Below, in pieces: positions 3,241 through 41,826 of a stretch of 64,000 bases of DNA. A program made the position numbers and the translations under genes. The stretch is from NCBI GenBank assembly GCA_964399345.1, contig CAYNQE010000001.1:17060-81059 (forward strand), written 5' to 3'. Below the pieces are notes generated by a model. The model worked only from the letters and a program-made list of their open reading frames with translations. It was not told the origin of the DNA and made no database searches. Numbering within the stretch: position 1 is the stretch's first letter; each line of letters opens with the position of its first letter. This DNA is from an uncultured Candidatus Saccharibacteria bacterium. GTDB taxonomy: Bacteria > Patescibacteriota > Minisyncoccia > Phycocordibacterales > UBA2100.

Positions 3241-4545
3241 ATGGAACGAACAATAATTTCAGACTTAACTAAAAAGAAAGGGGAGAAGGTACACATCGCA
3301 GGATGGGTAGATGTTCGTCGTGATCATGGGAAACTTACCTTCCTAGTTATCCGAGACCGTAGTGGAGTGGTTCAAGGTGTTGTCAAAGGAGATCTTACTG
3401 ACGAGACTAAAGACATACGAGAGCAATGGGTGGTAAGTATTCAAGGCACCGTAAACGAACGACCTGAGAGTATGATTAAGGACGAGCAAAACGGTGATGT
3501 TGAATTACTTGTCGAAGAAGTGCAAATTCTCTCAGAAGCTGATGAAATGCCTTTCGACTTAGATTCAGAATTAAATATAGATACATACTTAGACAACCTT
3601 CCACTAACACTACGTTCACAAAAAGCATTAGATGTATTCACAGTTCAAGCAACCATTACCGCGGCATTCCGTGAGTTCCTAACAAACGAGGGATTCAAAG
3701 AATACCAGTCACCTGCACTTGTAGGAGGAGACGCAGAAGGAGGAGCATCTGCCTTTAAAGTCGACTATTACAAAGATAAGTTAGCGTTTCTAGCAACTAG
3801 CCCTCAATTGTATAAGCAGATAATGGTAGGAACCTACGAGAGAGTGTTCAGTATTGGAAAAGTTTTTAGAGGAGAAGATCACGCAACTTCACGACACCTT
3901 TCAGAATATTCCTCCTTGGACTTTGAGATGGGCTTTATTGAAGATCACGAAGACGTTATGGAGATGACTCAAGCTGTTCACTCACATATCGCAAAGACTA
4001 TAGCTGAAAGACATCCCGACATACTTAAGAGAATGGAAGTTGAAATCCCATTAACTCCAGAAAAGTTTCCAGTAGTTACACTTAAGGAAGCACTGGAGAT
4101 TGTTGGAGCTGATGTTAACGAGCCAGATCTTGAACCTGAACACGAACGACAACTATGTGCTTGGGCTAAAGAGAATCATAAGTCTGACTATATCTTTGTT
4201 ACTCACTACCCTGTATCAAAGCGTCCTTTCTATACATACGAAGATGAAGATGCGCCAGGCACAACAAAAGGCTTTGATCTTCTTTTCCGAGGACTTGAGA
4301 TAACAACAGGAGGTCAAAGAATACACGACCATGATACTTTAGTTGAGAAGATAAAAGAGAAGGGAATGAACCCAGAACTATTCTCGTTCTATCTTCAAGC
4401 ATTTAAATTTGGAATGCCTCCTCACGGTGGTACAGGAAACGGACTAGAGCGTCTAACTCAACTTATGCTTGGACTAAAGAATGTGCGAGAAGCTACTTTA
4501 TTCCCACGTGACATGAACCGAATAGATAATCAGTTGAGTGAATAG
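3241..4545 (+). CDS. aspS: Aspartate--tRNA ligase, archaeal/type-2 form (class IIb)
   Basis: Class II motifs FRGEDHATSRHLSEY and GGQRIHD. C-terminal IKEKGMNPELFSFYLQAFKFGMPPHGGTGNGLERL closely matches archaeal-type AspRS. Length 434 aa. Confidence 0.75.
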   Translation: MERTIISDLTKKKGEKVHIAGWVDVRRDHGKLTFLVIRDRSGVVQGVVKGDLTDETKDIREQWVVSIQGTVNERPESMIKDEQNGDVELLVEEVQILSEADEMPFDLDSELNIDTYLDNLPLTLRSQKALDVFTVQATITAAFREFLTNEGFKEYQSPALVGGDAEGGASAFKVDYYKDKLAFLATSPQLYKQIMVGTYERVFSIGKVFRGEDHATSRHLSEYSSLDFEMGFIEDHEDVMEMTQAVHSHIAKTIAERHPDILKRMEVEIPLTPEKFPVVTLKEALEIVGADVNEPDLEPEHERQLCAWAKENHKSDYIFVTHYPVSKRPFYTYEDEDAPGTTKGFDLLFRGLEITTGGQRIHDHDTLVEKIKEKGMNPELFSFYLQAFKFGMPPHGGTGNGLERLTQLMLGLKNVREATLFPRDMNRIDNQLSE

Positions 4546-5262
4546 ATGTCTGACTTTACTCTAGAGCTAGAAGGTTTCCGAGGCCCACTTGGGCTTCTTC
4601 TTGATTTAATTGAAAGAGAGAAGCTTCGTATAAATGACGTGTCTCTTGCTAAAGTTTCTGACGACTACATTGAATACATTCAAGACAGGGAAGCAATTCC
4701 ACTTTCGCAAACCTCTCAGTTTGTTGTTGTAGCCTCTACTTTGCTGTTAATAAAGTCTCGCTCACTACTTCCGTCTCTTGAACTCTCAGAAGAGGAAGAC
4801 GAAGATATTAGAGATTTAGAAAATCGTCTAAAGATGTATAAGAAAGTAAGAAGAGCGACTAAGTTAATCAAAAACCGTTGGGGCAAGAAATTGTTTCTTC
4901 CAACATTTAAGCCAACGGAAATAAAATTCTCACCAGGGGGTGATGTAAAAAAAGAAAACTTGCACATTTCTTTAAAAGGCGCACTGGATGCTCTTCCTTC
5001 CTTTGACAAGGCACCTACTGCAAAGGTTAGTAAAGAAGTCTCTCTGGAGGAGATGATTGAAGATCTAACAGAGAGAATACGCTCAGCTACAACTTCCTCT
5101 TTTAATAAGATTACTGAGAAAGCTAGTAAAATAGAGGGTATTGTTAACTTTTTAGCTTTACTTGAACTAGTAAAGCGTGGGACACTAAGTGTGACCCAGG
5201 AGAAACATTTTTCTGACATTGATTTTGATAACGAGGAAGTAGACACACCACATTATGGATAG
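4546..5262 (+). CDS. scpA: Segregation and condensation protein A (kleisin)
   Basis: N-terminal LELEGFRGPLGLLLDLIEREKL, characteristic of ScpA. It is immediately followed by scpB with a 4-nt overlap. Confidence 0.75.
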   Translation: MSDFTLELEGFRGPLGLLLDLIEREKLRINDVSLAKVSDDYIEYIQDREAIPLSQTSQFVVVASTLLLIKSRSLLPSLELSEEEDEDIRDLENRLKMYKKVRRATKLIKNRWGKKLFLPTFKPTEIKFSPGGDVKKENLHISLKGALDALPSFDKAPTAKVSKEVSLEEMIEDLTERIRSATTSSFNKITEKASKIEGIVNFLALLELVKRGTLSVTQEKHFSDIDFDNEEVDTPHYG

Positions 5263-8808: not shown

Positions 8809-9963
8809 TTGCGATATACTAGGTGTATGAAAATCGTTTTTACAGGTGCTGGTACCGGTGGTCATTTCTACCCTCTAATTGCAGTGGCAGAGGAAATTCA
8901 CAATATCGTAGAAGAAGACAGACTACTTACCCCTGAACTTTTTTACATTGCTCCTCACTTGTTAGACAGTGATGCTCTTGCTGAGCAAAATATTACTTGG
9001 AAAAAAAGCAGTGCGGGTAAGGTTCGCCGCTACTTTTCTATACGTAATGTATTTGATGTTTTTAAAACTCTCTTCGGAACTGTTCAGGCAACAATTCAAT
9101 TGTTCTTTTTATATCCTGACGTTGTCTTTAGTAAAGGAGGCTACGCGAGTGTTCCAACTACAATTGCAGCAAGAATTTTAAATATTCCTGTAATCATTCA
9201 CGAATCAGACGCACATCCGGGAAAAGCAAACCTACTTGCCTCTAAGTGGGCAAAGGCTGTAGCTATTTCATTTCCTGGAGTACGAGAGTATTTTAAAAAT
9301 GTAGATGACTCTAAAATCGCGTTAGTAGGAAATCCTATAAGGCGAGCGCTCTTTAGGCCTGCAAGTGAAGGTGCCCACTCTTTTCTTAAACTCGACTCTA
9401 TAAAACCAACTATTCTGATCCTTGGTGGATCACAAGGTGCTACTTCGATTAACTCTGTGATATTAGACGCACTACCTGAACTTCTAGAGAAATACCAAGT
9501 GATTCATCAAACAGGAAAAGAAAATCTGGAAACAATTGAGGGTCTTGCTCGAGTTATCCTAAAAGATCACCCCCACAAGGGTAACTATAAAGTATTTGGG
9601 TACTTAAATACTTTGGCCACAAGAATGTCTGCTGGAGTTGCGTCCATTGTTGTTATGCGAGCAGGCGCCGGGCATATATTTGAAACAGCAGCCTGGGGGA
9701 TACCTTCAATTGTTATTCCAATTCCTGAGGAGTTCTCCCACGACCAAACCAGAAACGCTTTTGCCTACGCAAGAGACGGGGCTGCAGTTGTGCTAAAGCA
9801 AAAGAATTTAAGTGAAAATCTACTAGTTGCAGAAATTGGGAGAATACTTGGAAGCCAAGAAATCCAAGATGATATGAGGAAGGCGGCTTTAGAATTTTCA
9901 CGCCCTGATGCGGCTAAAAAATTAGCTCACATGATTATAAAAACAGCACTTGAACATGAATAA
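8809..9963 (+). CDS. murG: UDP-N-acetylglucosamine--N-acetylmuramyl-(pentapeptide) pyrophosphoryl-undecaprenol N-acetylglucosamine transferase. The real start may be the internal MKIVF at 8827.
   Basis: KIVFTGAGTGGHFYPLIAVAEE N-terminal glycosyltransferase-28 motif. Confidence 0.85.
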   Translation: MRYTRCMKIVFTGAGTGGHFYPLIAVAEEIHNIVEEDRLLTPELFYIAPHLLDSDALAEQNITWKKSSAGKVRRYFSIRNVFDVFKTLFGTVQATIQLFFLYPDVVFSKGGYASVPTTIAARILNIPVIIHESDAHPGKANLLASKWAKAVAISFPGVREYFKNVDDSKIALVGNPIRRALFRPASEGAHSFLKLDSIKPTILILGGSQGATSINSVILDALPELLEKYQVIHQTGKENLETIEGLARVILKDHPHKGNYKVFGYLNTLATRMSAGVASIVVMRAGAGHIFETAAWGIPSIVIPIPEEFSHDQTRNAFAYARDGAAVVLKQKNLSENLLVAEIGRILGSQEIQDDMRKAALEFSRPDAAKKLAHMIIKTALEHE

Positions 9964-11274: not shown

Positions 11275-12540
11275 ATGAAAATCTTAACTGGATTTTTGAC
11301 TATTCTTTTGCTCACTCCAGGAGTGTTGAACGCACAGAGTGCAAGTGAGATTCGAGATAAGATAGACAATCAACAAACTGAAATTTCTGAAATTGAAGAG
11401 GAGATTAAGAAGTATGAAGCTCAATTAACTGAAATTAGTAGAGAGAAGAACACTCTTCAAGGGGCTGTTCAAGAATTAGATGTTTCAAGAAAAAAAGTTG
11501 GAGCGAACATATCTATTACCCAAAGGCAGATCAATACAACAAGCTCCAGCATTGAAGAAATGACTTATGATATTAATATTAAGGAAGAATTAATTGCAGG
11601 AAACCAAAAAGCATTAGCCGAAACAATAAGAAGGATAAACGAAACGGAAAGTGATTCTTTTGTTGAGATTATTTTAAATAGTAATGATATTTCCAATCTC
11701 TGGAGTGACGTTGAAACTCTTCAACAATTCCAAGTAGTAGTTAGAGGAGAAGTTACAGTACTAACTGCTCAAAGAAAATCTCTTGAGGCTGCAAGAGAGA
11801 CAAAGGAAATTCAACAAGGTAAATTAGTCTCTCAGAAAACAGATCTTTCAACTCAGAAGCGTTCTCTAGATATAAACAGACAAGCAAAGAACTCCCTTCT
11901 AAAGGAAACCAAAAACAGAGAATCAACCTATCAGGAACTTATAGCCGAAAAGAAAAAGGCTAAGGAAGAATTTGAAGCTCAGCTGAAAAGTTTTGAATCT
12001 GAACTGCAATATATCTTAGATCCATCTAGCATACCGCCTGCAGGGAAGGGGGTACTGAGCTGGCCATTAGATAAAGTAAGGATCACTCAATACTTTGGAA
12101 ATACAAAGTTTGCCAGCTCAGGTGCGTACAACGGAAGCGGACACAACGGGATGGATTTTGGTACGCCGATAGGGACGCCTGTTAAAGCAGCACTTTCCGG
12201 AAATATTAAAGCAACAGGGAATACCGATGCTTTCCGTGGATGTTACTCGTACGGAAAATGGATACTTGTTGAGCACGTAAACGGATTAGCTACTCTATAC
12301 GCACACCTTTCAGATATCAGTGTTAGCCCAGGTGATGCCGTTGGTACTGGCCGAGTTATCGGATACTCAGGTAACACCGGATTCTCAACAGGACCTCACC
12401 TTCATTTTACTCTTTATGCAAACGACGCAGTGCAAGTTGTGCGTCTTGGTGACATAAAGGCAAGGACAGGGTGTGCTGATGCGAAAGTGCCTGTTGCCTC
12501 ATGGAGTGGTTATCTAAATCCTCTAAATTACTTGAATTAG
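11275..12540 (+). CDS. Secreted M23-family metallopeptidase (EnvC-like murein endopeptidase) with an N-terminal coiled-coil
   Basis: Signal peptide, then a long coiled-coil. C-terminal LytM domain with HNGMDFG and GPHLHF zinc motifs. Confidence 0.85.
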   Translation: MKILTGFLTILLLTPGVLNAQSASEIRDKIDNQQTEISEIEEEIKKYEAQLTEISREKNTLQGAVQELDVSRKKVGANISITQRQINTTSSSIEEMTYDINIKEELIAGNQKALAETIRRINETESDSFVEIILNSNDISNLWSDVETLQQFQVVVRGEVTVLTAQRKSLEAARETKEIQQGKLVSQKTDLSTQKRSLDINRQAKNSLLKETKNRESTYQELIAEKKKAKEEFEAQLKSFESELQYILDPSSIPPAGKGVLSWPLDKVRITQYFGNTKFASSGAYNGSGHNGMDFGTPIGTPVKAALSGNIKATGNTDAFRGCYSYGKWILVEHVNGLATLYAHLSDISVSPGDAVGTGRVIGYSGNTGFSTGPHLHFTLYANDAVQVVRLGDIKARTGCADAKVPVASWSGYLNPLNYLN

Positions 12541-12836
12541 CTCCTTCTCACTCTCCTTTACTTGGTACACTAGTACCAAAAAGTTTAATGTCGCACAATA
12601 TATATAGGGTATTGAGGACGGGGTAGAGCAGGGTGATTAACTTAATTTTAACGAGATCCGTCAAAAGACTGAGAAATTAAAATTTATACATATACGTGCA
12701 AAAAGTAACTAGATAAAAAAATAAAAAATATTTGAAGGGTTAGAAGAAGGCTGAGATTTATATATGTGTTTACTAAGCTGTATTAGTTGTATATTATGTC
12801 GCAAAAGATATATTGTGCGAACTAAAGTAATCCAAT

Positions 12837-13385
12837 CTACACTTCTTCCCTTCCTAGTCGAGAATTGGTCCATTTTCTATTTTGCGAGCTTTTAAATTTA
12901 GACGACTGTTCCTGTATTTCCTGTATACGTGCTAAATCTTCTTTGCTCCACACTACCTTTTGGAAACCCATACTCCCCTTCACTATATTCACTGATCCTC
13001 TTATCTTCTTGTACTTAAGCAAGATACTTACTGCTTCAGCCCAAAGTTTAAAATCTCGCTTCTTTTTACCGAAAAGTTTATTTTTTCTGAAGAATGGTAT
13101 TATCGTATCCTGTAATTCAAATAGATCGGTCACCTGGTAACGTACCGACTTATTATTCTTGGTGAAGCTAATTTCGCCCACTTCAAATCGTTTTTTAAAT
13201 TCCTCAAGAATTTTAAAGTCATCCGCTCTTAGACTAATGGCAAAAATAGCCTTCCAGCTATAATAAACTGCCTTTGAGGCTCTCTCATGCCTAACATCTC
13301 TGCGTACAGATAATCCAAAACATCCCTCTCCATCTGTAAAACCAGATATATAGTCGTCTGAAATTGAAGTTTTTCTATTCACCAC
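12837..13385 (-). CDS. Free-standing single-motif LAGLIDADG homing endonuclease
   Basis: Canonical LAGLIDADG helix YISGFTDGEGCFGLSV near the N-terminus. At 182 aa it fits the homodimeric class. It sits in an AT-rich intergenic island. Confidence 0.8.
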   Translation of the reverse strand: MVNRKTSISDDYISGFTDGEGCFGLSVRRDVRHERASKAVYYSWKAIFAISLRADDFKILEEFKKRFEVGEISFTKNNKSVRYQVTDLFELQDTIIPFFRKNKLFGKKKRDFKLWAEAVSILLKYKKIRGSVNIVKGSMGFQKVVWSKEDLARIQEIQEQSSKFKSSQNRKWTNSRLGREEV

Positions 13386-13433
13386 CTAATAGTATATGCT
13401 GAGGTAGTGTCGCACAAGGGTCCGGTGTGTACA

Positions 13434-14201
13434 CTACTTCCCGAACTTCTCAAACGCTCTTAATACTTCAATAGGCATCGCAAACACTACTGTGTTGCTC
13501 TGATCTGAAGAAAGATCGTTCAGTGACTGCAATGTTCTAAGGTGTAGTGCACCGGGTGCTGCTGAGAGAGTGTTAGCAGCCTTTGCCATATTATCAGCTG
13601 AGATTACCTCACCTTCAGCCTTAATGATAACTGAGCGTTTCTCACGTTCAGCTTCAGCCTGTTTTGCAATTGTTCGCTCCATGTTATCAGGGAGGATAAT
13701 ATCTTTAAGCTCAACGTTTTGAACCTTAATCCCCCAGTCATCACTAGCAACATCAACTACTGATCGAATTTTTTCTGAAATCTTCTCTCTTCCTGAGAGA
13801 AGTTCATCAAGTTCAACTTCACCAACAGCATTACGCATAGTTGTTTGTGCTAACTGACTTACAGCAAAGAAGAAATCTTCAACTTTTAAAATAGCGTTGC
13901 CTGCATCACTTACCTTGTAGTATATAACGGCGTTAACTCCAACTGCGATGTTGTCTTTGGTAATGGCCTGTTGTTGAGGAACATCAACTGCTTTTGTTCG
14001 CATATCTACCTTCAACATTTTCTGAAACACAGGAATTACTATTCTCCATCCTGGTTCTCGCATTCCGGTAAACTTACCCATTGTAAACATAACCCCTCGT
14101 TCGTATTGGTTAACTTGTCGTAGTACTGCAACTGCAATACCGATAGCTAAAGGTAAAATTGTAAAAAATCCCATAAATATTATATTAATTATTAACTCCA
14201 A
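13434..14201 (-). CDS. SPFH/band-7 (stomatin/prohibitin-like) membrane protein
   Basis: N-terminal TM anchor followed by an SPFH domain (ITKDNIAVGVNAVIYYKV, AEREKRSVIIKAEGE). Confidence 0.8.
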   Translation of the reverse strand: MELIINIIFMGFFTILPLAIGIAVAVLRQVNQYERGVMFTMGKFTGMREPGWRIVIPVFQKMLKVDMRTKAVDVPQQQAITKDNIAVGVNAVIYYKVSDAGNAILKVEDFFFAVSQLAQTTMRNAVGEVELDELLSGREKISEKIRSVVDVASDDWGIKVQNVELKDIILPDNMERTIAKQAEAEREKRSVIIKAEGEVISADNMAKAANTLSAAPGALHLRTLQSLNDLSSDQSNTVVFAMPIEVLRAFEKFGK

Positions 14202-30308: not shown

Positions 30309-30390
30309 ATCGAACCCCTATCTGGAGTTATATTATACCATATTTAGGATATTCCTAGAAAAGAAAAAGAGTCGCTTTTGCGACTCTTTT

Positions 30391-39935: not shown

Positions 39936-40571
39936 ATGGCTAAGGCACACAAGAAGATTAACATGGCCTGGTCTCCAAAATTATCTTACGCAATAGGAAT
40001 AATAGCCTCTGATGGTAATTTGTCCCCTGATAGAAGGCATATAAACATAACATCAAAAGATCTCTCTATTGTTGAAAGTTGTAAAAGCGCACTAGAGATA
40101 GATAACAAAATAGGAAGGAAGAGCCGCGAACGTTCTTCCGAAAAGGAATATTATGTCCTTCAATTTGGAAGTGTATTGTTTTATCAATTCTTGCTTGACC
40201 TGGGACTTCACCCAAACAAATCAAAAACACTGAAAAAAGTAGACGTTCCTAATGAATATTTCTCACATTTTTTACGAGGACTTATGAATGGTGATGGAAC
40301 AATAACATCCTTTAAGCATCCTTATAGCAAACTACTTCAAACAAGAATATCTTTGGCATCTGCAAGTCCGGATTTTCTAATCTGGATACACGGTAAAATA
40401 CGAAAACTTGTAAATATTGAAGGTGGTTGGATATACAATGCAAAAAAGAAAAATATCTCCATGCTTACATTTGGCAAAAGAGACACTATACTAGTCTGCA
40501 AATTTATGTATAATAAATCGGCTACATACAAGCTTATGCGTAAATATGATTGCATAGAAAAGTATCTTTAA
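39936..40571 (+). CDS. Double-motif (monomeric) LAGLIDADG homing endonuclease
   Basis: Two LAGLIDADG helices, YAIGIIASDGNL and HFLRGLMNGDGTI, about 100 aa apart. 211 aa. It fills the tRNA-Lys/tRNA-Leu spacer exactly. Confidence 0.8.
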   Translation: MAKAHKKINMAWSPKLSYAIGIIASDGNLSPDRRHINITSKDLSIVESCKSALEIDNKIGRKSRERSSEKEYYVLQFGSVLFYQFLLDLGLHPNKSKTLKKVDVPNEYFSHFLRGLMNGDGTITSFKHPYSKLLQTRISLASASPDFLIWIHGKIRKLVNIEGGWIYNAKKKNISMLTFGKRDTILVCKFMYNKSATYKLMRKYDCIEKYL

Positions 40572-40574
40572 GTT

Positions 40575-40659
40575 GGGCGAGTGGTGAAATTGGTATACAC
40601 GCGTGGTTTAGGACCACGTTCCGCAAGGAGTGGAGGTTCAAGTCCTCTCTCGCCCACCA
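40575..40659 (+). tRNA. tRNA-Leu (anticodon TAG), CCA encoded
   Basis: Acceptor GGGCGAG/CTCGCCC. Anticodon stem CGTGG/CCACG with loop TTTAGGA. Long variable arm. Ends ACCA. Confidence 0.8.
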
Positions 40660-40667
40660 GAATAGAA

Positions 40668-40812
40668 CTTGTCCGCCTACGCACTGGACGTGTCGCCTCG
40701 TTCCACTCAGCAACCTAAATACAAACTCATTCCCTTTCAACTTTTTACGACTCCCCCAGACCCCCACCGCAGGGAAAAGGAAAGGTGAGGAAATGGTTTG
40801 TTTTTTGGTTTA
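40668..40812 (+). repeat. Repeat A: about 145 bp left-flank copy of an inverted repeat pair bracketing the DGR. Begins 9 nt after tRNA-Leu(UAG).
   Basis: The reverse complement of 43553-43690 aligns base-for-base with this segment at about 80% identity, for example cgcctacgca[c/t]tggac...gttccactc...acccccaccgc[a/g]ggg...ggaaatg. Confidence 0.7.
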
Positions 40813-40827
40813 CTACTACGTAGTTAA

Positions 40828-41826
40828 CTACTTATTTAAATGTGTAGAAAGGGAGCGCGTGTACTCTTTTAACTCATAAGCATCTCCATGTCCGAGTAGT
40901 CCCAAGTATGATTGTAAAGTCCATTGTTTGCCATCAACTTCACTAATTCTCTTTAACATTCTTCGTTTTGTTACACTGCGTAGTACACGGTGAGTCGGAA
41001 AGTGAACCCAACCTAGAAAGTCAACTCCTGAGGAGAATGTTTCAATGGAAGTCTTTCGTTTATGCAATTTAAGTTGTAACTCTTCTTTTAGAAACGCACC
41101 TATGCACCGATGTATTTCCAACAACTCTTGTCTGTCTCGCGAAAGAATCACAAAATCGTCAGCATAACGAATATAATATTTAGCTTTCAGTTTGTGTTTA
41201 ACAAACTTATCAAGCTCATTCATATATACATTAACAAAGAGTTGCGAAGTGAGGTTACCAAGTGGTAATCCTTTTCTTTTCTCACCAGAGCTGAAACTCC
41301 CAACAATCTCTTCTAAAAGCGAAATTATATCTTTGTCAGAAATGTGTTTCTTCAAAATATTCATTAAGATAGAGTGGCCAATGGAGGCAAAGAATTTTCG
41401 TATATCGCTTTTAAATACCCAAACTGTTTTCGTGTTGTTCTTTGAAACTTTGTTTACAAAACTGCGAAGCCGATCAATTGCTCTGTGTGTCCCTTTGTTG
41501 TTTCTGCAAGAATATGAGTCAGCGATGAACGTATTGTCAAAATATGGATAGAGTTGTCTATATATTGCATGGTGAAATAGTCTGTCTCGCACGCTTGCCT
41601 TATGAATATTTCTTGGTTTGGGATCGGAAATGTTAAAAGCTTCGTATCTACCGTGCTTGTATGTTTTGTTTTTTAAATCTTGGTGTAATGAAAGTATGTT
41701 ATCCATTAGATGTAATTGGAACTCCTGCACGTCCTTACGTTTTCGTTTACCGTTTAAGAATTCCTTCCACGCACCGAGGAGATTTTCTACACAGATGATA
41801 TCATTGTAGGTATGAACAAATTTCAT
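40828..41826 (-). CDS. DGR-type reverse transcriptase
   Basis: RT motifs KHGRYEAFNISDPKPRNIHKASVRDRLFHHAI (domains 1-2) and YIRYADDFVIL (YADD catalytic box). 332 aa with no maturase or endonuclease domain. A TR/VR pair lies adjacent. Confidence 0.85.
   Translation of the reverse strand: MKFVHTYNDIICVENLLGAWKEFLNGKRKRKDVQEFQLHLMDNILSLHQDLKNKTYKHGRYEAFNISDPKPRNIHKASVRDRLFHHAIYRQLYPYFDNTFIADSYSCRNNKGTHRAIDRLRSFVNKVSKNNTKTVWVFKSDIRKFFASIGHSILMNILKKHISDKDIISLLEEIVGSFSSGEKRKGLPLGNLTSQLFVNVYMNELDKFVKHKLKAKYYIRYADDFVILSRDRQELLEIHRCIGAFLKEELQLKLHKRKTSIETFSSGVDFLGWVHFPTHRVLRSVTKRRMLKRISEVDGKQWTLQSYLGLLGHGDAYELKEYTRSLSTHLNK

What the first reader, a model, noticed from the sequence alone, without database searches (positions are those of the whole stretch)
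12541..13433. Free-standing LAGLIDADG gene in an AT-rich island flanked by 'tgtcgcacaa' direct repeats
A classical single-motif LAGLIDADG ORF (YISGFTDGEGCF) sits alone between an M23 peptidase gene and an SPFH gene, inside an AT-rich spacer. The 9-mer gtcgcacaa, or its one-mismatch variant gtcgcaaaa, occurs three times. It appears at about 12588, at about 12798 (39 bp beyond the ORF stop), and at about 13410 (25 bp upstream of the ORF start). The last two copies closely bracket the HEG. A 9-mer is expected less than once per 64 kb by chance. These may be target-site or boundary repeats of a small mobile insertion that carries the endonuclease.
Basis: seen in the sequence. Interest (0 to 1): 0.5.

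Follow-up and report, generated by a model that had tools for sequence, protein, structure and literature searches.

The report
Homing endonuclease gene beside dif site
The repeated 9-mers are the arms of a 28-bp site that looks like this bacterial group's chromosome-untangling (dif/Xer) site, and the small LAGLIDADG nuclease gene belongs to a family that in 11 of 12 lineages examined sits right next to that site or to a copy of one of its arms, an association between two well-known systems that I could not find described.

Summary
A 182-aa single-motif LAGLIDADG gene (12837-13385, minus strand) lies between an M23 peptidase gene and an SPFH gene. TGTCGCACAA occurs twice (expected 0.11), and a variant lies between the two copies.

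The repeats are not target-site duplications. The middle copy is one arm of a 28-bp near-palindrome, ATGTCGCAAAA|GATATA|TTGTGCGAACT (12796-12823). This site is present once each in more than 120 metagenome contigs. It is conserved over exactly 28 bp (11+6+11) and matches E. coli and B. subtilis dif at 17/28 positions. Its orientation predicts the flanking GC skew and convergent genes, and Xer-like recombinase genes often lie nearby. I read it as the Patescibacterial dif site.

Copies 1 and 2 also occur in relatives that lack the endonuclease gene. Copy 3 travels with the gene.

Of twelve homologue lineages examined, eleven have the arm motif 1-79 nt after the stop codon, in one orientation. 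Five also carry an inverted arm 18-28 nt before the start. Three are overlapping xer-LAGLIDADG gene pairs.

The gene is rare (2 of 122 canonical dif loci), is sometimes truncated, and keeps its catalytic motif. The best reading is a selfish cassette that hunts dif sites. How it moves is inferred, not shown.

The parts
11275..12540 (+). M23 peptidase gene. It is the conserved left neighbour of the dif-like site (GltX-M23-dif synteny).
   Evidence: Pfam Peptidase_M23, E 2e-27. M23 homologues lie near the site in 56 related loci and GltX in 32.
12588..12604 (+). Site A: an extra copy of the right-arm type (ATGTCGCACAAT) plus an AT-rich centre, with no partner arm. It forms a perfect 13-nt inverted repeat with the right arm of site B.
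   Evidence: I5. It is conserved in HEG-less L002, L003, L009, L018 and others at -73 to -913 nt from the site.
12605..12795 (.). A-B interior: AT-rich, with a G-rich stretch at its left end. It is not conserved among relatives and shows no RNA signal. Probably junk or the remnant of a module.
   Evidence: Alignment. No Rfam match at E<=1. Fold z-score -1.04. The L018 interior holds a truncated 6PGL-like ORF.
12796..12823 (+). Site B: the 28-bp dif-like Xer site ATGTCGCAAAA|GATATA|TTGTGCGAACT (left arm, centre, right arm). The right arm carries the rare HEG-linked variant GCGAAC.
   Evidence: logo limited to 28 bp; polarity; 17/28 to known dif; single copy in the window; variant arm.
12837..13385 (-). 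LAGLIDADG endonuclease gene: 182 aa, single motif, with the catalytic DGEG intact and a family-specific C-terminal extension of about 55 aa.
13408..13434 (+). Site C: an inverted right-arm copy (TGTCGCACAA, 13408-13417) 23 nt upstream of the gene start, then a spacer and a degenerate partner arm (GTGTGTACAC, 13425-13434) that abuts the SPFH stop codon.
   Evidence: The same element lies 18-28 nt upstream of the homologues in L187, L194, L204 and L208.
13434..14201 (-). SPFH/Band_7 gene, the right boundary of the cassette. The slot between it and site B holds different genes in relatives.

Best explanation
The 9-mers are the arms of a 28-bp dif-type Xer recombination site (site B, 12796-12823) plus two extra arm copies (A and C). 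Site B is most likely the chromosome dimer-resolution site of this Patescibacterium, lying where genes and GC skew converge.

The LAGLIDADG gene is the only cargo of a cassette of about 0.6 kb. The cassette fills the space between the right arm of dif and the SPFH stop codon. It is bounded by that arm and by an arm copy read as inverted (C).

The gene belongs to a Patescibacterial LAGLIDADG family that is found next to dif or to dif-arm copies, in a fixed orientation. The family is rare, patchy and sometimes decayed. In other words, it behaves as a selfish 'dif-site hunter'.

Shown here: the site's anatomy and distribution; the gene-site association; the intact catalytic motif.

Inferred: the enzyme acts as a homodimer that cuts HEG-less chromosomes at or beside the near-palindromic dif, and is then copied in by repair (homing). 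The flanking Xer-type sites may additionally, or instead, allow Xer-mediated cassette exchange.
For: dif identity:
- In 149 unique contexts, conservation extends 3 nt beyond the pattern on each side and then stops. This gives ATGTCGCAAAAG[A/G]TATATTGTGCGAC[A/G][T/C], which is 11+6+11 with 12 of 14 dyad pairs.
- It matches both E. coli and B. subtilis dif at 17/28 positions (P about 1e-4 to 5e-4 against shuffles).
- The site's orientation predicts GC skew left>right in 33 of 37 chromosomal loci (p 1e-6), with 23 convergent against 2 divergent gene arrangements, and 10 of 10 convergent with 4-kb flanks.
- In the window, the cumulative skew maximum and the switch from 12 plus-strand genes to minus-strand genes fall at about 12.8 kb.
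- XerC/D-like genes lie within 3 kb in 14 loci and directly beside a diverged site in L004 and L018.
- Phage contigs carry the same site.

Gene-site association:
- All 12 homologue lineages examined lie in the same GltX/M23...L27 region.
- Eleven of 12 have the arm motif 1-79 nt after the stop in one orientation, and eight of these are full sites. Five of the seven free-standing ones have TTGT[G/A]CGACA 18-28 nt before the start.
- The five closest lineages share the rare right-arm variant GCGAAC (Fisher p 4e-6).

Selfish character:
- The gene is present in only 2 of 122 canonical dif loci and absent from the closest relatives L002-L004.
- The L046/P0008 copy is N-terminally truncated.
- DGEG is invariant in the 29 full-length members aligned.
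- The model has the LAGLIDADG fold and is closest to I-LtrI, I-OnuI and I-TnaI.
Against: - No cleavage or recombination data exist, so the target of the enzyme is unknown.
- No closely related HEG-plus/HEG-minus allele pair was found, so the insertion boundaries are inferred from more distant comparisons.
- The terminus assignment rests on local skew and gene polarity only. It is partly confounded by shared GltX-M23 synteny: without that synteny the result is 11 of 14 (p 0.06).
- No Xer gene lies in the 64-kb window.
- Site B in the HEG-bearing genome is almost intact (2 mismatches). A dif-cutting enzyme would therefore need those outer-arm changes, or something else, for self-immunity.
- Homing alone does not explain why an upstream arm copy (C) is conserved.
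- The protein is more conserved than GltX and M23 between the same genomes (window-L187: 68% against 57% and 44%), and three lineages have overlapping xer-LAGLIDADG pairs. Both facts also fit a host function.
Confidence: 0.65

Rival explanations
1. Xer-mobilised module. The cassette is moved by the host Xer recombinase acting on the two flanking Xer-type sites (B and C). This would work like the dif modules of Acinetobacter plasmids, or like recombinase-mediated cassette exchange. The nuclease would be a passenger, or would only stabilise the cassette.
For: - The gene lies between a full site and a second site with one perfect arm and one divergent arm, read as opposite in orientation. This is the layout described for dif modules (PMC10132070).
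- Arm copies of mixed orientation delimit other gene blocks in the same region: A/B/C here, and five arms in L195 and L199.
- Extra arm copies are enriched about 15-fold near dif (31 observed against 2 expected).
- The right arm next to the gene is a shared variant, as expected if a crossover in the centre brought in the element's arm.
- The same cassette lies beside different neighbours: SPFH, orf152, PspC, PDDEXK, murI.
- Phages carry the same site.
Against: - Inverted sites give inversion, not insertion or excision.
- C lacks a good second arm in the window.
- A cassette whose only gene is a nuclease with an invariant catalytic motif suggests that the nuclease itself matters for spread.
- C is missing in 2 of the 7 free-standing lineages.
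Confidence: 0.3
2. Domesticated protein. The LAGLIDADG protein is not selfish. It is a site-specific DNA-binding or nicking partner of Xer at dif, for example an activator or regulator, or a repressor that binds arm copies upstream of xer and of its own gene.
For: - Overlapping xer-LAGLIDADG gene pairs occur in three lineages.
- An arm copy lies at a fixed 16-28 nt upstream of both the xer and the LAGLIDADG start codons.
- The protein is more conserved than GltX and M23 between the same genomes, and its identity tracks host distance.
- The family shares a conserved C-terminal extension.
Against: - The gene is present in only 2 of 122 canonical dif loci and absent from the nearest relatives.
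- Truncated copies exist.
- Every full-length member keeps the catalytic acidic residue, which maturase-like domesticated forms often lose (my knowledge).
Confidence: 0.15
3. The 9-mers are target-site or boundary duplications created when a small mobile element carrying the endonuclease was inserted.
For: Copies 2 and 3 bracket the gene closely, here and in four other lineages.
Against: - Copies 1 and 2 exist in genomes without the gene.
- Copy 2 is part of a 28-bp palindrome present in more than 150 contigs.
- The arm copies can be read as inverted rather than direct.
Confidence: 0.03
4. The A-B segment is a small RNA gene, a promoter/terminator pair or a MITE, and the motif is its boundary signal, unrelated to recombination.
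For: - A and the right arm of B form a perfect 13-nt inverted repeat spaced 204 nt apart.
- The scan found weak promoter-like matches overlapping site B: on the plus strand at 12769-12797 (ending in its left arm) and on the minus strand at 12821-12793 (both 9 of 12).
Against: - No Rfam match at E<=1.
- The fold is no better than shuffles (z -1.04).
- The interior is unconserved and ranges from 73 to 913 nt.
- There is only one copy in 64 kb.
- No terminator was found.
Confidence: 0.05

Closest known systems
Single-domain (homodimeric) LAGLIDADG homing endonucleases: I-CreI, I-TnaI, and the CPR rRNA-intron enzyme I-ShaI (PMC11270868)
   Same: One LAGLIDADG_1 domain of about 180 aa, an intact catalytic acidic residue and the alpha-beta-beta-alpha-beta-beta-alpha fold. 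Such enzymes are expected to bind near-palindromic sites of about 22 bp as dimers. CPR bacteria are known to be rich in them.
   Different: The gene is not in an intron, an intein or an rRNA gene. It is free-standing beside a recombination site. It has a conserved C-terminal extension of about 55 aa. Its target has not been shown.
IS1202-family 'dif site hunters' (ISAjo2/ISAba71) of Acinetobacter (PMC10132070)
   Same: A mobile gene found in a fixed orientation a few bases from one arm of dif or dif-like sites, both chromosomal and in module arrays.
   Different: Those are transposase-bearing insertion sequences with terminal inverted repeats and 5-bp target duplications. Here the only gene is a LAGLIDADG nuclease, there is no duplication, and the distance to the arm varies (1-79 nt).
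Acinetobacter pdif modules
   Same: Short gene modules bounded by Xer-type sites in opposite orientation, arranged in arrays, with the same module found in different contexts.
   Different: The case here is chromosomal, at the presumed terminus, and in Patescibacteria. Many boundary sites are single arms rather than full sites. The cargo is a nuclease rather than resistance or toxin genes.
IMEX elements (CTX, VGJ, TLC, gonococcal GGI; PMC5357621)
   Same: They exploit the host dif. The second site has one conserved arm and one divergent arm. They have no recombinase of their own. Phage contigs carrying the same site were found.
   Different: IMEX elements are flanked by direct dif-like repeats and integrate as circles. 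Here the arms facing the gene can be read as inverted, and the element is only about 0.6 kb.
Single-recombinase Xer systems (XerS/difSL, XerH/difH, archaeal XerA/dif; PMC5357621)
   Same: A strongly palindromic, highly conserved site. In some genomes the recombinase gene lies directly beside the site (L004, L018). The Xer-like protein scores equally as XerC and as XerD.
   Different: The site sequence is new. Whether one or two recombinases act on it is unknown.
Free-standing homing endonuclease genes of T4-like phages (seg and mob genes; my knowledge)
   Same: Intergenic nuclease genes that spread by cutting the HEG-less allele near their own insertion point, with co-conversion of flanking markers. 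Compare the shared right-arm variant here.
   Different: Those are GIY-YIG or HNH enzymes in phage genomes. This is a LAGLIDADG enzyme in a bacterial chromosome next to dif.

Membership tests
LAGLIDADG homing endonuclease (single-motif type) | LAGLIDADG_1 domain with a conserved acidic residue at the end of the motif | tested here: met
   Pfam E 1.1e-21. G19-E20-G21 are invariant across the 29 full-length family members aligned.
LAGLIDADG homing endonuclease (single-motif type) | alpha-beta-beta-alpha-beta-beta-alpha fold similar to solved enzymes | tested here: met
   AF2 model with pLDDT 83. Foldseek top hits are I-LtrI, I-OnuI and I-TnaI at E about 5e-11. phmmer against 4lq0 gives E 3e-24.
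LAGLIDADG homing endonuclease (single-motif type) | Patchy distribution with decayed copies (the invasion-decay cycle) | tested here: met
   Found in 2 of 122 canonical dif loci. Absent from L002-L004. The L046/P0008 copy is N-terminally truncated.
LAGLIDADG homing endonuclease (single-motif type) | Cleaves the HEG-less allele at a defined site and is copied into it | not testable with these tools
   This needs an enzyme assay or population data.
dif / Xer chromosome dimer-resolution site | About 28 bp: two 11-bp arms with dyad symmetry around a 6-bp centre | tested here: met
   The logo of 149 contexts is conserved over exactly 28 bp. 12 of 14 dyad pairs, and 17/28 identity to E. coli and B. 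subtilis dif. The definition is from PMC5357621.
dif / Xer chromosome dimer-resolution site | Single copy per chromosome | tested here: inconclusive
   One per contig in 159 loci and one in the 64-kb window. Whole genomes were not available.
dif / Xer chromosome dimer-resolution site | Located at the replication terminus with fixed polarity | tested here: inconclusive
   Local skew and gene convergence agree: 33 of 37 loci, p 1e-6, and the window's skew maximum lies at about 12.8 kb. The result is partly confounded by shared synteny (11 of 14 without it). No whole-chromosome skew was computed.
dif / Xer chromosome dimer-resolution site | Cognate Xer recombinase present | tested here: inconclusive
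   None in the window. XerC/D-like genes (E about 1e-69, below the equivalog cut-offs) lie beside or within 3 kb of the site in 14 or more related loci.
IMEX (integrative mobile element exploiting Xer) | Element flanked by two dif-like sites in direct orientation after integration at dif | tested here: inconclusive
   B and C flank the gene. C has the right-arm base at one of the two positions that distinguish the arms and the left-arm base at the other. Read by the first, it faces B's right arm as an inverted repeat. The near-palindromy of the arms makes the orientation ambiguous.
dif modules (Acinetobacter type) | Module bounded by Xer sites in opposite orientation, and the same module found in different contexts | tested here: met
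   for the layout (with the orientation caveat given in the IMEX row). for the different neighbours.
dif modules (Acinetobacter type) | Both boundaries are full XerC/XerD sites, and the module is carried on plasmids | tested here: not met
   C has a degenerate second arm and A has none. The loci are chromosomal, with housekeeping neighbours.
   Copies 1 and 2 are both present in HEG-less L002, L003 and L009.

The most novel reading that the evidence does not exclude
A family of LAGLIDADG endonucleases recognises the arms of the chromosome dimer-resolution site itself. Either it homes into dif, the most conserved non-coding palindrome in these genomes, or it works together with Xer (the xer-LAGLIDADG operons). 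Either way, the terminus of Patescibacterial chromosomes would become an array of exchangeable modules bounded by dif arms. This would be the first functional link between homing endonucleases and the Xer/dif system, and would give the first dif definition for this phylum.
Probability: 0.3. Interest if true: 0.8.

Novelty: new variant of a known kind. Interest (0 to 1): 0.6.

Why it matters
- It supplies a candidate dif sequence for Patescibacteria (consensus ATGTCGCAAAAGATATATTGTGCGACAT). I found no description of one in the searchable literature. The sequence could be used to locate termini, orient contigs and find Xer-exploiting elements, including phages, in these uncultured bacteria.
- It shows a mobile nuclease family whose niche is the dif site. 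A dif site is a target that no genome can afford to lose. This extends the logic of homing endonucleases from rRNA and essential genes to an essential non-coding site.
- If the enzyme really reads the 22-bp core of dif, it would be a natural meganuclease with a known, near-palindromic target.
- The xer-LAGLIDADG gene pairs would then raise a testable question: can a nuclease assist or hijack Xer recombination?

Tried and rejected
- HEG-free allele. The three syntenic relatives (L002, L003, L004; SPFH 83-89% identical) lack the gene but carry other cargo in the same slot: a 153-aa ORF, a PNPOx-like gene, and an FAD oxidase plus an integrase. No clean empty site could be aligned.
- Non-coding RNA in the AT-rich spacer. 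No Rfam match at gathering threshold or at E<=1. The fold is no better than shuffles. The interior is not conserved.
- Promoter or terminator reading of the motif. The consensus scan gave only weak matches and no terminator. The spacing between the motif and -10-like boxes is inconsistent between genomes (my inspection).
- MITE or insertion sequence with the 13-nt inverted repeat as its ends. There is a single copy in the window, the interior is variable, and the position is conserved across genomes.
- Group I intron or tRNA context. No tRNA or rRNA lies nearby.
- Xer gene in the window. None found by tblastn.
- Literature. No paper held all of the terms LAGLIDADG, XerC and dif in a relevant sense. 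No paper listed in the Patescibacteria searches contained the phrase 'chromosome dimer resolution' or both the dif and Xer terms.
- The profile search of 1.8 billion representatives. It showed about 40 or more full-length single-domain relatives, but it gives no genomic context, so it did not help with mechanism.

Full report
**1. The observation**

The ORF at 12837-13385 on the minus strand encodes 182 aa with YISGFTDGEGCF and matches Pfam LAGLIDADG_1 (E 1.1e-21). Its neighbours are an M23 peptidase gene (11275-12540, plus strand) and an SPFH/Band_7 gene (13434-14201, minus strand). GC falls to 0.29 at 12600-12899, against about 0.40 around it.

Exact GTCGCACAA lies at 12590 and 13409, and GTCGCAAAA at 12798. 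A fourth, inverted copy lies at 12813-12821. The 10-mer TGTCGCACAA occurs twice against 0.11 expected. Across the whole 64 kb there is one full 28-bp site and no other convincing arm copy. The motif is therefore local, not a genome-wide word.

**2. What the motif is**

The copy at 12798 and the inverted copy at 12813 form one near-palindrome: ATGTCGCAAAA|GATATA|TTGTGCGAACT (12796-12823, site B). The copy at 12590 (site A) forms a perfect 13-nt inverted repeat with B's right arm.

The window comes from a Patescibacterium (CPR bacterium). The closest genome loci are L002, L003 and L004, with SPFH 83-89% identical. All three lack the endonuclease gene. L002 and L003 nevertheless have both A and B downstream of their M23 gene, and the more distant L009 has both beside other genes. 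The interior between A and B is not conserved.

A looser pattern found 34 IMG/VR contigs. In 149 non-redundant contexts, conservation extends three bases beyond the searched pattern on each side and then stops abruptly. This gives a 28-bp consensus, ATGTCGCAAAAG[A/G]TATATTGTGCGAC[A/G][T/C]. That is the 11+6+11 layout that defines dif sites (PMC5357621). The consensus has 12 of 14 dyad-symmetric pairs. It is identical at 17 of 28 positions to both the E. coli and the B. subtilis dif sequences as I recall them (P about 1e-4 to 5e-4 against shuffles).

**3. Terminus-like context**

When loci are oriented by the site's own asymmetry, GC skew is higher on the left than on the right in 33 of 37 chromosomal loci (p 1e-6). 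The flanking genes converge in 23 loci and diverge in 2. With 4-kb flanks, all 10 usable loci converge.

In the window, twelve plus-strand genes end at the site, minus-strand genes follow, and cumulative GC skew peaks at about 12.8 kb.

One caveat applies. Many of these loci share GltX-M23 synteny, so they are not independent. Without that synteny the trend is weaker: 11 of 14, p 0.06.

Xer-like tyrosine recombinase genes lie within 3 kb of the site in 14 loci. They score equally as XerC and as XerD, at about 1e-69. In L004 and L018 a diverged version of the site lies 16 nt upstream of the recombinase start codon, which recalls xerS/difSL. The window itself has no Xer gene.

I conclude that B is very probably the dif site of this group. 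Whole-chromosome position, copy number and recombination remain untested.

**4. The endonuclease family and the site**

A search with the window protein found 31 homologues at 41-67% identity, all matching PF00961. I looked at the genomic context of twelve lineages. All lie in the same GltX/M23...L27 region.

Read on the gene's sense strand, eleven of the twelve have (T/G)(G/T)TCG[C/T]A[C/T]A[A/T] 1-79 nt after the stop codon, always in the same orientation. Chance expectation is about 0.007 per locus (my estimate from the motif's degeneracy over 120 nt). In eight lineages this motif is a full dif-like site.

Five of the seven free-standing lineages also have TTGT[G/A]CGACA 18-28 nt before the start codon. 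These are the window, P0002, P0005, P0009 and P0010. A degenerate partner arm lies further out. It is absent from HEG-less loci: extra arm copies to the right of dif are rare there (3 of 31).

The nucleotide homology between the window and L187 starts at C and ends at the stop codon. In the window, C's outer arm abuts the SPFH stop codon. The unit therefore spans about 12823-13433, roughly 0.6 kb.

The five closest lineages share a rare right-arm variant of dif, GCGAAC instead of GCGACA (Fisher p 4e-6). This suggests that the outer arm bases travel with the gene.

C has the right-arm base (C) at one of the two positions that distinguish the arms, and the left-arm base (G) at the other. Read as a right arm, the layout is right arm - gene - inverted right arm. 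It is then not a pair of direct duplications. Because the arms are near-palindromic, this orientation call is weak.

In the three more distant lineages P0021, P0024 and P0026, the gene overlaps the end of a xer-like gene on the same strand. In L195 and L199 (P0021 and P0026), arm copies flank the whole orf110-xer-LAGLIDADG block and other blocks nearby; no arm copy was found in L198 (P0024). A second LAGLIDADG paralogue often lies close by.

**5. Selfish or useful?**

The gene occurs in only 2 of 122 canonical dif loci that have enough right flank to judge. It is missing from the nearest relatives. In L046/P0008 it has lost its N-terminus, including the motif.

All 29 full-length members aligned keep DGEG. 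The AF2 model (pLDDT 83) has the expected fold and is closest to I-LtrI, I-OnuI and the homodimeric I-TnaI. These features fit an active, cycling homing endonuclease.

Other facts point the other way. The protein is more conserved than GltX and M23 between the same genome pairs. The xer-LAGLIDADG pairs and the fixed arm copy upstream of both xer and the nuclease gene would also fit a host or regulatory role. I rank that reading lower because of the patchy distribution.

**6. Mechanism**

Two routes fit the data, and they may act together.

(a) Homing. A homodimeric enzyme would suit the 22-bp core TCGCAAAAG-ATAT-ATTGTGCGA. This core is the only sequence near the insertion point that is conserved across hosts. 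The shared arm variant could then be a co-conversion tract or an immunity change.

(b) Xer-mediated exchange. The gene lies between Xer-type sites read as opposite in orientation, as in Acinetobacter dif modules (PMC10132070). Arm copies are about 15-fold enriched near dif, mostly within 2.3 kb to its left (31 observed against 2 expected). Real phage contigs, with terminase and RecA genes, carry the same site between divergent gene blocks. This suggests that other mobile elements also carry, and perhaps exploit, the same site.

Neither cutting nor recombination can be tested with these tools.

**7. Comparison with known systems, and verdict**

The protein is an ordinary member of the LAGLIDADG superfamily. 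CPR bacteria are known for single-domain enzymes of this size in rRNA introns (PMC11270868). The dif site, IMEX elements, dif modules and the IS1202-family 'dif site hunters' are all known kinds.

What I could not find described is a LAGLIDADG gene family tied to dif and Xer, or a dif sequence for Patescibacteria.

I file this as a new variant of known kinds. The interest lies in the dif link rather than in the gene itself.

Noticed in passing
L165, L170, L178, L186 (IMG/VR contigs), at the dif-like site: Phage contigs with terminase large subunit and RecA genes carry the same 28-bp dif-like site. There it lies between divergently transcribed gene blocks, the opposite polarity to the chromosomal loci. 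It may be an attachment site that exploits host Xer, or a site for resolving phage genome dimers.
   Followed up: partly
window 12607-12636; also L002, L009, L018, L199 just after site-A-type arms: A G-rich tract of G-quadruplex type (for example GGG..GG..GGGG..GGG) follows the extra arm copy in several genomes, although the rest of the interior is not conserved. It is unexplained.
   Followed up: no
L194 about 4175-4220, L208 about 985-1028, L187 about 4945-4973; window 13425-13434: The degenerate partner arm of site C reads TTATCCACA in L194 and L208 (identical to the DnaA-box consensus as I recall it), ATATCCACA in L187 and GTGTACACA in the window. It may simply be a decayed arm, but its recurrence suggests it is part of the cassette.
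   Followed up: no
L195 897-2409, L198 4048-5513, L199 4037-5540: Xer-like recombinase genes and LAGLIDADG genes overlap by a few bases on the same strand, so they look like operons. A second LAGLIDADG paralogue of 164 aa (36% identical, motif NNDG) lies nearby in L195, L199 and L203.
   Followed up: partly
L004 about 9100-9145, L018 about 9913-9955: A diverged version of the site (TTCGTTTTACATATATTGTGCGAA) lies 16 nt upstream of a xer-like start codon. This recalls the adjacent xerS/difSL arrangement. In L018 the segment between it and a site-A copy holds an N-terminally truncated 6PGL/NagB-like ORF.
   Followed up: partly
L002 1525-2875, L003 5760-7790, L004 5688-10145 (the slot equivalent to window 12824-13433): The space between dif and the SPFH gene is a variable slot. 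It holds a 153-aa ORF of unknown family in L002. In L003 it holds a PNPOx-like gene plus about 1.1-1.5 kb that looks non-coding. In L004 it holds an FAD-linked oxidase-like ORF, a PNPOx-like gene, a xer-like integrase and a 259-aa ORF.
   Followed up: partly
window 30376-30384 (-): The other one-mismatch match to the 9-mer (GTCGCAAAA) is the stem of a terminator-like hairpin (aaaaagaGTCGCaaaaGCGACtcttttt). It is unrelated to the dif arms.
   Followed up: yes
window 40567-41163: ARAGORN calls a permuted 'tmRNA*' that overlaps tRNA-Leu (40575-40659). Rfam gives only the tRNA there, so the tmRNA call is probably spurious.
   Followed up: no
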